Virus record (IMG/VR): IMGVR_UViG_3300047462_000154
Span: 1 to 64,000 of that record
Strand: one strand, 5' to 3'
Length of the DNA stretch: 64,000 nucleotides
DNA from: a virus
The notes under the pieces were generated by a model, which saw nothing but the letters and a program-made list of their open reading frames with translations, ran no database searches and had not been told where the DNA came from. Of the stretch, positions 8,769 through 16,971 are shown one piece after another. Numbering within the stretch: position 1 is the first letter of the stretch; each line of letters begins with the position of its first letter. The position numbers and the translations under genes were made by a program.

Positions 8769-9111
8769 TGGAACGATATTTTAATGATGATTATTATGCT
8801 ATAAAAATAAGTAAAAATTTTATAAATGGTTTACACTATAAAAATTCATTTTATGGTATATTTGTTTTCCTGGTCAAGTAAAATTAACAGTAAAAAATCA
8901 AAAAACAAATGAAGTAAAAAAACCAAAAATTCATAAATTGCTAAGAGATATAGATTTAAAAAGATTAGATTGGGATAAGAAAGATATTGAAGATTTGCCA
9001 GTTTTCTTAAGTTATTATACAAGATTTTTTCTTGAAATAGATTGTCAAGAAGCAGAAAAACAAAATCCTGATATTACTTTTCGAAGAACAATGAGCAAAT
9101 TATTGAAGTAA

Positions 9112-9195
9112 TGGTGAGGAAGGAAGGAATTTGCACCTTCACAAAATTAATGGCTGTTTTACAGACAGTTAGGCTCACTCGTGCCCAGCTTCCCC
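9112..9195 (-). tRNA. tRNA-Tyr(GUA), atypical T-loop
   Basis: GGGGAAG/CTTCCTC acceptor stem, loop CTGTAAA, long variable region, GAAGG-TGCAAATT-CCTTC T arm, encoded ACCA. Confidence 0.75.
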
Positions 9196-9205
9196 AAAAA
9201 TTAAA

Positions 9206-9281
9206 TGGTGCAAGGGAGTGGAATCGAACCACTGACACTCGTAACTTCAATACGATGCTCTACCAACTGAGCTACCCTTGC
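9206..9281 (-). tRNA. tRNA-Phe(GAA)
   Basis: Canonical 76-nt cloverleaf, loop TTGAAGT, TTCGATT T-loop, ACCA end. Confidence 0.92.
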
Positions 9282-9302
9282 ATTGTTGCTGTATTTTTTG
9301 TT

Positions 9303-9378
9303 TGGTGAGAGTGGAAAAGATTTGAACTTTCAACCTTCGAGTTTGGAATCCGACGCTCTACCGTTGAGCTACACTCCC
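9303..9378 (-). tRNA. tRNA-Trp(CCA)
   Basis: GGGAGTG/CACTCTC acceptor stem, loop TTCCAAA, TTCAAAT T-loop, ACCA end. Confidence 0.88.
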
Positions 9379-9413
9379 AAAACAAAAAACCCGCTCGGCA
9401 ATCGCCAGCGGGC
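9379..9413 (-). terminator. Intrinsic terminator (attenuator 3:4 hairpin) immediately 5' of tRNA-Trp
   Basis: GCCCGCTGGC-GATT-GCC(G)AGCGGGT followed by TTTTTGTTTT. Confidence 0.8.
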
Positions 9414-9440
9414 TATTAAAATTCAAATTTTAAGAGAATA

Positions 9441-9539
9441 TTATCCCCCAAAACCCTCATGATTTGCCCAGCCAGCAGCATTGCCGCAAGTATATCGCGT
9501 GCTTGTAAATCGCCAGAAAAGGGCAGTTTGAGTGTTCAT
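9441..9539 (-). CDS. 32-aa leader peptide MNTQTALFWRFTSTRYTCGNAAGWANHEGFGG (putative attenuator leader)
   Basis: ATG 6 nt after TAAATA, like other late genes; GC-rich; 3 Phe, 2 Trp and 1 Tyr codons; pairs with the downstream terminator; below the ORF-track cutoff. Confidence 0.7.
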   Translation of the reverse strand: MNTQTALFWRFTSTRYTCGNAAGWANHEGFGG

Positions 9540-9545
9540 AAATAC

Positions 9546-9551
9546 TATTTA
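9546..9551 (-). promoter_or_regulatory. Late promoter TAAATA for the leader/tRNA operon
   Basis: Minus strand reads GCTAAATAGTATTTATG. Confidence 0.65.
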
Positions 9552-9570
9552 GCAAAGTTGCTCAAACAAG

Positions 9571-9882
9571 TCAACATATAAAATCCATTACTAATTTAAT
9601 TAAAGCAACATCTTCTTTTGTTTTCGCAAAAATATTTACTGAATGCATATTTAAATAAAATCTTGCATTTTTATCCGCATTAAAAAGTAAAATTGGTTTA
9701 TTTATTTCATAAGGTGTCACATCATAATATGAAAAAATACCATAACCTTTTCCCAAAAAATCATCATAAATTATATAATGTTTTTCGCTATTATCAACGT
9801 TAAAAGCTTTAAAACCATTGGGTATTTCTTTAATATATCCATCGTGAATTTCTGTAAGTTGTGGATATATTTTTCCACACAA
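9571..9882 (-). CDS. Small hypothetical protein, FKL family (N-terminus possibly frameshifted, starting at 9977)
   Basis: IFAKTKEDVALIKLVMDF. Confidence 0.5.
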   Translation of the reverse strand: MCGKIYPQLTEIHDGYIKEIPNGFKAFNVDNSEKHYIIYDDFLGKGYGIFSYYDVTPYEINKPILLFNADKNARFYLNMHSVNIFAKTKEDVALIKLVMDFIC

Positions 9883-10245: not shown

Positions 10246-10328
10246 GCTACCTCACTGGATGTGAGTGGTCCTGACATGTCTTCGCGGACAACCCGCCCAA
10301 CATGAGTCCGAAGCTATTGTTGGGCGGG
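10246..10328. other. GC-rich three-hairpin element (terminator and/or small RNA)
   Basis: CTCAC/GTGAG, TGTC/GACA and an 11-bp CCCGCCCAACA/TGTTGGGCGGG stem with a cUUCGg loop on the minus strand. Confidence 0.5.
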
Positions 10329-10817
10329 ACGCGAATATTCAGAAATTTTTTCTTTTATTATTTTAAAAGATTTTTCATCTTTTAATAAAGCAACCAATCC
10401 AAAATGTAATGGTTTTGGTAAATTATCTAATCCACACCAAATAAAACCTTGATTTTCCCAATCTAATCTGGGAGTGAATTCATTATCAACAATTGCCAAA
10501 TAATTGTAATATTTGAATCCTGGTTTTGAAAATACATATAATGGTTCTACTTCTATTTGACCATGATATCCTGTTTCTTCATTAATTTCTCGAACCAATG
10601 CTTCTAAAGGATTTTCTTTAGAATCAATTGCACCACCCCATGAACCCCATGTATTTGGCTCTTGCACAGCATCAGAACGATGGGCAATTAATAATTTACC
10701 AGTATCTTTTGCAAGAATAATACATCCAGCCCCAACACTTCCCCAAAACCCAGTCTTGTCGATTTGTGCAGCATGTTTGGCATCGTCATCGCCTTCAAAT
10801 AAATCAATAAGTTTCAT
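10314..10817 (-). CDS. Nudix hydrolase with N-terminal tag MKLIDLFE
   Basis: Nudix box GGAIDSKENPLEALVREINEETG. Confidence 0.9.
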   Translation of the reverse strand: MKLIDLFEGDDDAKHAAQIDKTGFWGSVGAGCIILAKDTGKLLIAHRSDAVQEPNTWGSWGGAIDSKENPLEALVREINEETGYHGQIEVEPLYVFSKPGFKYYNYLAIVDNEFTPRLDWENQGFIWCGLDNLPKPLHFGLVALLKDEKSFKIIKEKISEYSRPAQQ

Positions 10818-16809: not shown

Positions 16810-16885
16810 TGGAGGCTTGTAACGGAATCGAACCGTTCTAATTTTGCTTTGCAGGCAAACGTATAGCCAATCTAACCACCAAGCC
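16810..16885 (-). tRNA. tRNA-Cys(GCA)
   Basis: Cloverleaf, loop CTGCAAA, TTCGATT T-loop, U73 discriminator, CCA. Confidence 0.85.
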
Positions 16886-16898
16886 AGATAAATTTTAA

Positions 16899-16971
16899 TT
16901 GGCGCGGATGGAATCGAACCACCGTAATTCTGTATTGCAAACAGACCCCTAGCCCCTCGGAACACGCGCCA
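16899..16971 (-). tRNA. tRNA with GCA anticodon (Cys?), A73 and no encoded CCA
   Basis: TGGCGCG/CGCGCCA acceptor stem, TCTGT-TTGCAAT-ACAGA, GGTGG-TTCGATT-CCATC. Confidence 0.7.

What the first reader, a model, noticed from the sequence alone, without database searches (positions are those of the whole stretch)
9112..9551. Leader-peptide attenuator controlling a phage tRNA-Trp/Phe/Tyr operon: a sensor that supplies tRNAs on demand
Seen (minus strand), in order: late promoter TAAATA (9551-9546); leaderless 32-codon ORF MNTQTALFWRFTSTRYTCGNAAGWANHEGFGG (9539-9441); an intrinsic terminator (9413-9379) whose U-tract ends 1 nt before tRNA-Trp; then tRNA-Phe and tRNA-Tyr. The early leader codons F8-W9-F11-Y16 are exactly the amino acids of the three tRNAs. 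Segment 1 (GCCCTTTTCTGGCGATT, 9524-9508, spanning the F-W-R-F codons) is a near copy of segment 3 (GCCCGCTGGCGATT, terminator 5' arm). Segment 2 (CGGCAATgctGCTGGCtGGGC, 9486-9466) can pair with either one, giving about 17 bp with GCCC-GCTGGC-g-ATTGCCG. The spacer also folds (TTTTGGGGGA/TCTCTTAAAA) with the stop codon in its loop. Established: this is the 1:2/2:3/3:4 logic of the trp and phe attenuators, which control biosynthetic or synthetase genes. Inference: ribosome stalling at aromatic codons, for example after host anticodon-nuclease cleavage or tRNA depletion late in infection, favours the antiterminator and releases replacement tRNAs in a negative-feedback loop. I know of no described ribosome-mediated attenuator gating tRNA genes in a phage.
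Basis: partly seen in the sequence, partly recalled or inferred. Interest (0 to 1): 0.95.

Follow-up and report, generated by a model that had tools for sequence, protein, structure and literature searches.

The report
Leader-peptide attenuator before phage tRNA genes
A 32-codon mini-gene and a transcription stop signal sit directly in front of a giant phage's tRNA-Trp, tRNA-Phe and tRNA-Tyr genes, wired like the classic trp attenuator, so the phage probably makes these tRNAs mainly when ribosomes are slow at Trp and Phe codons, a control I could not find described for tRNA genes.

Summary
On the minus strand lie a TTGACT-17-TAAATA promoter-like site, an ATG 6 nt later, and a 32-codon ORF. A hairpin holds the stop codon in its loop. 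A hairpin plus U-tract abuts tRNA-Trp, followed by tRNA-Phe and a sub-threshold tRNA-Tyr(GUA).

Folding supports a switch. The terminator forms with probability 0.92 in free RNA. It falls to 0.00-0.14 when a ribosome is placed on codons 3-12 (F8, W9, R10, F11). No shuffle of the upstream part matched this (0/150).

A diverged relative (L014) has a 20-22-codon ORF with the same MNT start and W-R-[F/Y]-T at the same codons. It also has a homologous terminator and a differently spelled antiterminator, before tRNA-Trp and tRNA-Tyr (0/200 shuffles). A paralog in the same phage precedes a tRNA-Lys.

Three points do not fit. Y16 lies outside the sensing window. L014 has Phe codons but no tRNA-Phe in the 11 kb read. 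The Lys paralog shows no predicted switch. Translation and regulated read-through are untested.

Most likely this is a ribosome-mediated attenuator gating tRNA genes (confidence 0.6). My literature searches found no description. This scan has noted the same design in other phages.

The parts
9569..9574 (-). -35-like hexamer TTGACT. It overlaps the stop codon of the upstream 103-aa ORF.
   Evidence: Read. It lies 17 nt upstream of TAAATA. The same TTGACTT precedes the paralogous Lys leader.
9546..9551 (-). TAAATA promoter element (-10-like, or T4-late-like TATAAATA 7/8), 6 nt before the ATG.
   Evidence: TAAATA-N5-ATG precedes 13 ORFs of at least 40 aa in this genome, against 1-5 at other spacings. 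This implies leaderless mRNAs.
9441..9539 (-). Leader ORF of 32 codons plus stop: MNTQTALFWRFTSTRYTCGNAAGWANHEGFGG.
   Evidence: MNT and W9-R10-[F/Y]11-T12 are conserved codon for codon in L014. MNT and EGF[G/E]G-stop are shared with the Lys paralog.
9504..9533 (-). Predicted sensing window, codons 3-12 including F8, W9, R10(CGA) and F11. It contains segment 1 (9524-9508).
   Evidence: Terminator probability is 0.00-0.14 (up to 0.28 with shorter footprints) when the ribosome A-site is on these codons, against 0.92 for free RNA.
9466..9486 (-). Segment 2. It pairs with segment 1 (anti-antiterminator) or with the terminator 5' arm (antiterminator). In the masked fold the antiterminator extends 5' to 9491 (nt 49).
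   Evidence: Helices are listed. The 1:2 pairing is 15-19:71-75 and 24-29:63-68. The 2:3 pairing totals 23 bp (49-74 with 127-151).
9426..9455 (-). Spacer hairpin P2 with the leader stop codon UAA in its loop.
   Evidence: -11 kcal/mol, z = -3.5. The GGGATAATA loop region is shared with the Lys paralog, whose 3' arm differs but still pairs.
9379..9414 (-). Intrinsic terminator: an 11-bp bulged stem followed by UUUUUUGUUUU, abutting tRNA-Trp.
   Evidence: It is homologous to the L014 terminator CCCGCTGGC...GCGGGTTTTTTT.
9303..9378 (-). tRNA-Trp (CCA), with the 3' CCA end encoded.
   Evidence: ARAGORN; Rfam 47.9 bits.
9206..9281 (-). tRNA-Phe (GAA), with the 3' CCA end encoded.
   Evidence: ARAGORN; Rfam 66.9 bits.
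9112..9195 (-). tRNA-Tyr-like gene (GUA anticodon, long variable region, 3' CCA end). It is non-canonical.
   Evidence: Found only with ARAGORN -ps80. It is 78% identical to an unannotated element in G001.

Best explanation
This is a ribosome-mediated (leader-peptide) transcription attenuator that gates a promoter-less tRNA-Trp/Phe/Tyr operon.

Proposed mechanism:
1. Transcription starts at or next to the A of the leader ATG, from the TTGACT-17-TAAATA site, giving a leaderless mRNA as for many genes of this phage.
2. If the leader is translated quickly, or not at all, segment 1 pairs with segment 2 or the ribosome covers segment 2. The terminator then forms and transcription stops right before tRNA-Trp.
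3. If the ribosome lingers on codons about 3-12 (F8, W9, the rare Arg codon CGA, F11), it covers segment 1. Segment 2 then pairs with the terminator's 5' arm across hairpin P2, and RNA polymerase reads into the three tRNA genes.
4. RNase P would cut the tRNAs free.

The result would be negative feedback: slow decoding of Trp and Phe codons raises the supply of the tRNAs that read them.

Shown: the sequence elements, the alternative folds, their conservation in one ortholog, and the lack of a separate tRNA promoter.

Inferred: the transcription start, translation of the leader, and the response of read-through to decoding speed.
For: - **Anatomy.** The elements lie in the order promoter, ATG, ORF, P2, terminator, tRNAs. 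There is 0 nt between the U-tract and tRNA-Trp, and 21 and 10 nt between the tRNAs, so the tRNAs depend on read-through.
- **Switch.** Terminator probability is 0.92 for free RNA and 0.00-0.14 with a ribosome footprint on codons 3-12 at the longest footprint, up to 0.28 with shorter ones. From codon 16 on it is 0.9 or higher for all four footprint lengths. None of 150 dinucleotide shuffles of the upstream part reached the observed change.
- **Bistability.** The two folds differ by only 2.8 kcal/mol.
- **Ortholog.** L014 was found through a 60% identical neighbouring gene. It has tRNA-Trp and tRNA-Tyr behind a 20-22-codon ORF, MIMNTTFSFSWRYTWGIIANRV, with MNT and W-R-Y-T at the same codon numbers and an AGGA 6 nt before its first ATG. 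Its terminator is homologous. Its antiterminator is spelled differently (GGGGCAU/AUUGCCA/CGGGU against G000 ACUUGC/GGCAAU/UGCUGGC/GGGC). Terminator probability goes from 0.95 to 0.00-0.10 at codons 4-9, and 0 of 200 shuffles were switch-like.
- **Reading frame.** Mean column identity of the leader alignment (which also held a 10-nt filler row) is only 51%, yet every indel between conserved blocks keeps the frame. The indels are 15 and 3 nt against L014 and 45 nt against the Lys paralog.
- **Start context.** TAAATA-N5/6-ATG is the context of 13 long ORFs in this genome.
- **Composition.** The leader is as GC-rich as the tRNAs.
- **Precedent checked here.** Caulobacter phage CcrBL10 gp078 is a 45-aa ORF made mostly of L, S, A, T, K, P and H. 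It is followed by a terminator and then a Pro/Thr/Lys/Leu/His/Ala tRNA array.
Against:
- Only one ortholog and one paralog were found, so covariation rests on two or three sequences.
- Codon enrichment is modest. Three aromatic codons among 10 gives P = 0.08. Two or more Trp codons gives P = 0.07 for G000 and 0.03 for L014.
- Y16 and W24 lie outside the predicted window. With a long footprint, L014's W9 sits at the edge of its window.
- L014 has F5 and F7 in its window but no tRNA-Phe in the 11 kb read.
- The Lys paralog (MNTKRKFLRTTSEGFEG) keeps a terminator probability of 0.92-0.95 at every codon.
- A second frame is also open across the leader in both phages.
- The equilibrium folding model ignores kinetics.
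- A terminator that abuts a tRNA also follows an ordinary 78-aa ORF in an unrelated phage.
Confidence: 0.6

Rival explanations
1. Unregulated leaky terminator. The hairpin simply ends the upstream Nudix/103-aa operon and/or a small non-coding RNA of about 160 nt that starts at 9539. The tRNAs are made by constitutive partial read-through and RNase P processing, and the ORF is not translated.
For: The terminator is predicted to form in free RNA. The Lys paralog shows no switch. An unrelated phage has an ordinary ORF and terminator 2 nt before a tRNA-Arg. There is no Shine-Dalgarno sequence before the G000 ATG. GC-rich stretches give open frames easily, and two overlapping 32-aa ORFs occur here.
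Against: It does not explain a 23-bp antiterminator that is itself sequestered by segment 1, absent from 150 shuffles and rebuilt with different letters in L014. It also leaves unexplained the frame-preserving indels, the conserved ATGAACAC and W-R-[F/Y]-T codons, and an ATG placed exactly as in real genes.
Confidence: 0.2
2. An RNA switch that responds to something other than a ribosome, such as a protein, a small RNA or an uncharged tRNA binding segment 1. The open frame would be incidental.
For: The alternative folds are real and conserved. The pyrimidine tract and UGGCGAU of segment 1 are conserved at the nucleotide level. A conserved P2 hairpin has no obvious role in the ribosome model.
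Against: No Rfam family, T-box included, matches at E<=10 apart from chance-level hits. The ATG sits at the predicted transcript start as in real genes. L014 adds an AGGA before its ATG. Indels preserve the frame.
Confidence: 0.1
3. A small protein gene family (MNT...EGFGG peptides of 17-32 aa) with its own function. It happens to sit before tRNA genes and is followed by an ordinary terminator.
For: The N- and C-terminal peptide motifs are shared by the two paralogs in G000.
Against: The C-terminal motif is absent from L014. In G000 it coincides with the 5' arm of the P2 hairpin, so RNA pairing can explain its conservation. Length and middle sequence vary freely. All three copies lie immediately before tRNA genes.
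Confidence: 0.05

Closest known systems
trp and pheA operon attenuators of Enterobacteria (trpL, pheL; Rfam RF00513 Trp_leader)
   Same: Both have a short leader ORF carrying codons for the controlled pathway's amino acid. Both use four-segment logic: 1:2 anti-antiterminator, 2:3 antiterminator, and a 3:4 terminator with a U-tract. In both, a ribosome stalled on the regulatory codons masks segment 1.
   Different: The genes controlled here are tRNA genes, not biosynthetic genes. The mRNA appears leaderless. The leader continues through segment 2 and stops in the loop of an extra hairpin (P2) that lies inside the antiterminator. Only single Trp and Phe codons sit in the window, flanking a rare CGA. 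There is no sequence membership: Trp_leader scores 16.8 bits against a cut-off of 41.
pheST attenuator (leader peptide pheM; phenylalanyl-tRNA synthetase genes) and other attenuators of translation-apparatus genes (my own knowledge)
   Same: A leader peptide rich in the cognate codon controls a gene that supplies charged tRNA. The signal is therefore decoding speed, and the output acts on the same decoding step.
   Different: That output is a synthetase protein. Here the output is the tRNA itself, which responds to tRNA shortage rather than amino-acid shortage.
T-box riboswitches of Gram-positive bacteria (RF00230)
   Same: Both are terminator/antiterminator decisions linked to the state of a specific tRNA.
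   Different: T-boxes bind uncharged tRNA directly and need no translation. No T-box match was found, and no specifier loop or T-box bulge is evident.
Leader-ORF plus terminator modules before tRNA arrays noted by this scan in other phages, such as phiCbK-like Caulobacter phages (unpublished AI notes)
   Same: Both have a promoter, a mini-ORF made of codons read by the tRNAs behind it, a terminator and then tRNA genes. I partly checked CcrBL10 gp078.
   Different: There is no sequence relation. Here the operon is small and limited to aromatic amino acids, and the switch could be modelled codon by codon and compared with an ortholog.

Membership tests
Ribosome-mediated leader-peptide transcription attenuators (trpL/pheL/hisL class) | A short leader ORF with a usable start, upstream of and co-transcribed with the controlled genes | tested here: met
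   The ORF is 9539-9441. Its ATG lies 6 nt after TAAATA, the context of 13 long ORFs in this genome. In L014 the ORF has AGGA 6 nt before the ATG. Translation itself was not shown.
Ribosome-mediated leader-peptide transcription attenuators (trpL/pheL/hisL class) | An intrinsic terminator (GC-rich hairpin plus U-tract) between the leader and the controlled genes | tested here: met
   The terminator is 9414-9379. It forms with probability 0.92 and abuts tRNA-Trp.
Ribosome-mediated leader-peptide transcription attenuators (trpL/pheL/hisL class) | A mutually exclusive antiterminator (2:3) that is itself blocked by pairing with a segment inside the ORF (1:2) | tested here: met
   The helices are listed. 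The energies are -51.9 and -49.1 kcal/mol. Shuffles reached the observed change in 0/150 and 0/200 cases.
Ribosome-mediated leader-peptide transcription attenuators (trpL/pheL/hisL class) | Regulatory codons cognate to the controlled product, placed so that a stalled ribosome masks segment 1 | tested here: inconclusive
   F8, W9 and F11 lie in the window. Y16 does not. Enrichment is modest (P = 0.08). L014 has F5, F7 and W9 in its window but only tRNA-Trp and tRNA-Tyr downstream.
Ribosome-mediated leader-peptide transcription attenuators (trpL/pheL/hisL class) | Conservation of the ORF and the alternative pairings in relatives | tested here: met
   One ortholog (L014) keeps the ORF, the frame, the terminator and the switch with different antiterminator letters. 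The Lys paralog keeps the ORF, P2 and the terminator but has no predicted switch. No other relatives were found.
Ribosome-mediated leader-peptide transcription attenuators (trpL/pheL/hisL class) | Read-through rises when the supply of cognate charged tRNA falls | not testable with these tools
   This needs reporter assays, Term-seq or Ribo-seq.
Ribosome-mediated leader-peptide transcription attenuators (trpL/pheL/hisL class) | The controlled genes encode amino-acid biosynthesis enzymes or aminoacyl-tRNA synthetases | tested here: not met
   The only genes downstream are three tRNA genes. This is the point of novelty.
Rfam Trp_leader (RF00513) and His_leader (RF00514) | Score at or above the family gathering threshold | tested here: not met
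   Trp_leader scores 16.8 bits against 41 (E = 1.9). His_leader scores 18.2 bits against 49 (E = 2.6). Both are chance-level, driven by the terminator.
T-box riboswitch (RF00230) | A match to the covariance model | tested here: not met
   No hit at E<=10 in 8900-9800 and none at gathering score in the window.
tRNA (RF00005), for the third gene (Tyr) | A cloverleaf scoring above the detection threshold | tested here: inconclusive
   It was not found by default ARAGORN or by Rfam. ARAGORN -ps80 finds it with a GUA anticodon and a CCA end. A related copy exists in G001.

The most novel reading that the evidence does not exclude
Phages with their own tRNA genes use translated mini-genes as decoding-speed sensors. 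A ribosome that waits for tRNA-Trp or tRNA-Phe on the leader opens a terminator and releases exactly those tRNAs. tRNA supply would then be under closed-loop control by demand, for example when host tRNAs are depleted or cleaved during infection. This locus, its ortholog and the similar modules noted elsewhere in this scan would be members of a widespread class of attenuators that I could not find described and whose output is RNA, not protein.
Probability: 0.5. Interest if true: 0.9.

Novelty: new variant of a known kind. Interest (0 to 1): 0.8.

Why it matters
Why large phages carry tRNA genes, and how they are expressed, is an open question. An attenuator that reads decoding speed and answers by making the limiting tRNA would be the first feedback control of tRNA supply acting through translation itself. 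It would extend textbook attenuation from amino-acid genes to the decoding machinery. It would also tie phage tRNAs to host tRNA depletion or anticodon-nuclease defence, and offer a compact, programmable sensor of codon-specific translation speed. The locus is small (about 450 nt) and directly testable with a reporter.

Tried and rejected
**Searches for relatives**
- The upstream 103-aa protein is an orphan, with no relatives in IMG/VR or among 5.8 billion proteins.
- Exact-pattern scans of IMG/VR found no relatives. These covered the terminator, the tRNA-Trp core, terminator-like CCCGCTGGC...GCGGGTTTTT (64 chance terminators, one before a tRNA-Arg in an unrelated phage), ATGAACAC-N-TGGCGATWTAC (only coding-gene coincidences) and the P2 motif.
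- The single metagenome scan returned only bacterial tRNA-Trp loci, two behind an rpmG-like ORF.
- Nudix relatives at about 50% identity (G001-G004) have no tRNAs nearby and no leader match.
- The complete 457-kb relative G004 has 20 tRNAs but no leader/terminator modules.
- ValRS-like neighbours of L014 led to GC-rich giant phages without synteny.
- There is no close cultured phage.

**Other attempts**
- Identical-protein contigs exist in one run, but their DNA could not be fetched.
- The weak Rfam hits to Trp_leader, His_leader and YrlA are rejected as chance or as tRNA-driven.
- A second GC-rich island at 10270-10330 is a separate hairpin at the end of the Nudix gene, not part of this element.
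- Other tRNA genes of G000 (Cys x2, Thr, Arg) and of L014 (Pro, Leu x3) have no such leader.

Full report
**Setting.** The window is the first 64 kb of a 172-kb IMG/VR virus record. The record is 31% GC and estimated 39% complete, so it is a fragment of a giant phage. Its nearest relatives by a Nudix protein, at about 50% identity, are 457-561-kb phage genomes. Relatives of L014's ValRS-like gene carry T4 gp13/gp15-like genes.

**Observation.** Read on the minus strand, the region holds these elements in order:
- TTGACT (9574-9569), 17 nt, then TAAATA (9551-9546), 6 nt, then ATG (9539).
- A 32-codon ORF, MNTQTALFWRFTSTRYTCGNAAGWANHEGFGG, ending at 9441.
- A 12-13-bp hairpin with the UAA stop codon in its loop (9455-9426; z = -3.5).
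- A bulged GC-rich hairpin followed by UUUUUUGUUUU (9414-9379), which directly abuts tRNA-Trp.
- tRNA-Trp (9378-9303), 21 nt, tRNA-Phe (9281-9206), 10 nt, then a tRNA-Tyr-like gene (9195-9112).

Trp and Phe are solid. The Tyr gene is seen only at a relaxed ARAGORN threshold. It has a GUA anticodon and a CCA end, and a 78% identical unannotated copy lies in a related giant phage. The whole 9100-9550 stretch is 42-47% GC against 20-30% in the flanks, so the leader has the composition of structured RNA.

**Is it a switch?** The minimum-energy fold of the leader is 1:2 plus P2 plus terminator. I placed a ribosome footprint, from 15 nt upstream to 6-12 nt downstream of the A-site codon, on every codon in turn. 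I then computed the probability of the terminator helix.
- Free RNA gives 0.92.
- With the A-site on codons about 3-12 it gives 0.00-0.14 at the longest footprint and up to 0.28 at shorter ones. The lowest values fall at W9, R10 and F11.
- At codons 13-15 the result depends on the footprint. From codon 16 to the stop codon it is 0.9 or higher at every footprint length.
- In the masked state, segment 2 and its 5' extension form 23 bp with the whole terminator region, enclosing P2.
- The two conformations differ by only 2.8 kcal/mol in the full-length RNA. The antiterminator is the more stable fold until the terminator's 3' arm has been transcribed.
- I shuffled the upstream part while keeping the terminator. 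None of 150 shuffles reached the observed change, and 13 of 150 were loosely switch-like.

Y16 and W24 lie outside the window, so the model supports sensing of Phe and Trp codons but not Tyr.

**Relatives.** The upstream 103-aa gene is an orphan. Through the HslV-like gene 350 nt downstream I found a 60% identical protein on an ENA scaffold, L014. L014 has tRNA-Trp and tRNA-Tyr. They are preceded by TAAATAG, an AGGA, and the ORF MIMNTTFSFSWRYTWGIIANRV. A terminator, CCCGCTGGCAGTCATGCCCTGCGGGTTTTTTT, ends a few nucleotides before the tRNA.

Counted from the MNT methionine, W9-R10(CGA)-[F/Y]11-T12 occupy the same codons in both phages. Mean column identity of the leader alignment (which also held a 10-nt filler row) is 51%, and both indels inside the ORF are multiples of three, 15 and 3 nt.

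The L014 antiterminator uses different letters: GGGGCAU:AUGCCCU, AUUGCCA:UGGCAGU and CGGGU:ACCCG. Its anti-antiterminator is built differently, as a self-hairpin of segment 2 clamped by UCUCUUGG:CUAAGAGA. The behaviour is nevertheless the same. Terminator probability is 0.95 for free RNA and 0.00-0.10 with the A-site on codons about 4-9 (F5, F7, W9), and 0 of 200 shuffles were switch-like. With the longest footprint, W9 falls at the edge of the window.

**A paralog in the same phage.** Outside the window, at 169930-169805 on the minus strand, the same TTGACTT...TATAAATAG-ATGAACACT start opens a second ORF, MNTKRKFLRTTSEGFEG. It ends in the same GGGATAATA loop of a P2-like hairpin. The 3' arm of that hairpin differs in sequence but still pairs with the partly altered 5' arm. 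A weaker terminator follows, then 14 nt, then a tRNA with anticodon UUU. The 45-nt length difference from the Trp leader again keeps the frame. The paralog carries two AAA codons, but that is no more than expected by chance (P = 0.28). No codon position abolishes its terminator in the model. It therefore supports a leader family tied to tRNA genes but does not support the switch.

**Start of transcription and translation.** In this genome TAAATA is followed by ATG at a spacing of exactly 5 nt at 20 sites. Thirteen of these open ORFs of at least 40 aa, against 1-5 at any other spacing. A hexamer resembling the T4 late promoter TATAAATA (my own knowledge), fixed 5-6 nt before the ATG, implies leaderless mRNAs. 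The leader ORFs share the start context of real genes. In L014, a tRNA-Leu cluster begins 6 nt after TATAAATAG, which fits the motif being a promoter. 'Late' remains an analogy.

**Weaknesses.**
- There are no expression data.
- Only three family members are known, and many pattern and protein searches found no more. A complete related genome with 20 tRNAs lacks such leaders.
- Codon enrichment is modest. L014 has Phe codons in its window but no tRNA-Phe in the 11 kb read.
- Another reading frame is open across both leaders.
- Terminators abutting tRNAs also occur after ordinary genes.
- Equilibrium folding is a crude stand-in for co-transcriptional kinetics.

**Comparison with what is known.** The logic is that of the trp and pheA attenuators. 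Membership by sequence fails: Rfam Trp_leader scores 16.8 against a cut-off of 41. The controlled genes are tRNAs, not biosynthetic or synthetase genes. No T-box was found. Four full-text searches found no report of leader-peptide attenuation of tRNA genes, in phages or elsewhere.

Notes from this same scan report the same design in other, unrelated phages. These are unpublished AI notes, not independent evidence. I partly checked one. In Caulobacter phage CcrBL10, the 45-aa gp078 is made mostly of L, S, A, T, K, P and H. It is followed by a terminator and a Pro/Thr/Lys/Leu/His/Ala tRNA array.

**Verdict.** My best explanation is a ribosome-mediated attenuator that releases tRNA-Trp, tRNA-Phe and tRNA-Tyr when Trp and Phe codons are decoded slowly (confidence 0.6). 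The main rival is a constitutive leaky terminator or a small RNA (0.2). It is a new variant of a known mechanism, of high interest and readily testable.

Noticed in passing
G000:C1:169718-169930 (minus strand, outside the window): A paralogous leader, MNTKRKFLRTTSEGFEG, with the same promoter, MNT start, stop-in-loop hairpin and a terminator. It precedes an 87-nt tRNA with anticodon UUU, a long variable arm of the Leu/Ser/Tyr class and U73. G004 has a similar 87-nt tRNA-Lys(UUU) and an 87-nt tRNA-Cys. Which amino acid these tRNAs carry is unclear.
   Followed up: partly
whole G000 record, e.g. window 7823, 15770, 22891, 31374, 33679, 34540, 43436, 49725: TAAATA sits exactly 5 nt before the ATG of 13 ORFs of at least 40 aa. 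This suggests that many genes of this phage are transcribed as leaderless mRNAs from a T4-late-like promoter.
   Followed up: partly
window 9512-9510 and 9497-9495; G000 169918-169916; L014 4033-4035: The rare Arg codon CGA (0.19% of codons, 7% of Arg codons) occurs in all three leaders next to the putative sensing codons: W-CGA-F, K-CGA-K and W-CGA-Y. It may be a built-in slow codon, or a by-product of the GGCGAU pairing motif.
   Followed up: partly
window 10270-10335 (minus strand): A GC-rich island (46-52% GC) forms an extended hairpin, CGCG-CCCGCCCAACA...TGTTGGGCGGG...CGCGA, overlapping the stop codon of the Nudix gene. It has no U-tract and no Rfam match.
   Followed up: partly
L014:8040-8060: The tRNA-Leu x3 cluster starts 6 nt after TATAAATAG. 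The primary transcript may therefore begin at or next to the mature tRNA 5' end, leaving almost nothing for RNase P to remove.
   Followed up: no
L104:19706-19846: In a GC-rich giant phage, a 46-codon ORF, MTNARTIFVTANAPTGRDRGDMGGRGEREFRAGAFRHGFTL, lies before a tRNA-Asp/Gly/Glu cluster. It has a Gly/Asp/Glu-rich core and is followed by a hairpin without a U-tract. It may be another leader of the same kind.
   Followed up: no
window 16810-16971 (minus strand): Two tandem tRNA-Cys(GCA) genes lie 13 nt apart, with no leader ORF or terminator upstream.
   Followed up: partly
L014:4319-5716 and relatives P0010-P0128: A truncated class I synthetase-like protein (about 440-520 aa, labelled ValRS-like) lies next to the L014 tRNA-Trp/Tyr operon. 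It is widespread in 0.2-0.6-Mb phage contigs.
   Followed up: no
G004:C1:361110-361200 (minus strand): An unannotated tRNA-Tyr(GUA)-like sequence lies directly upstream of the Lys-Cys-Trp-Gln-Ala cluster. ARAGORN misses it at default settings, as it does the window's Tyr gene.
   Followed up: no
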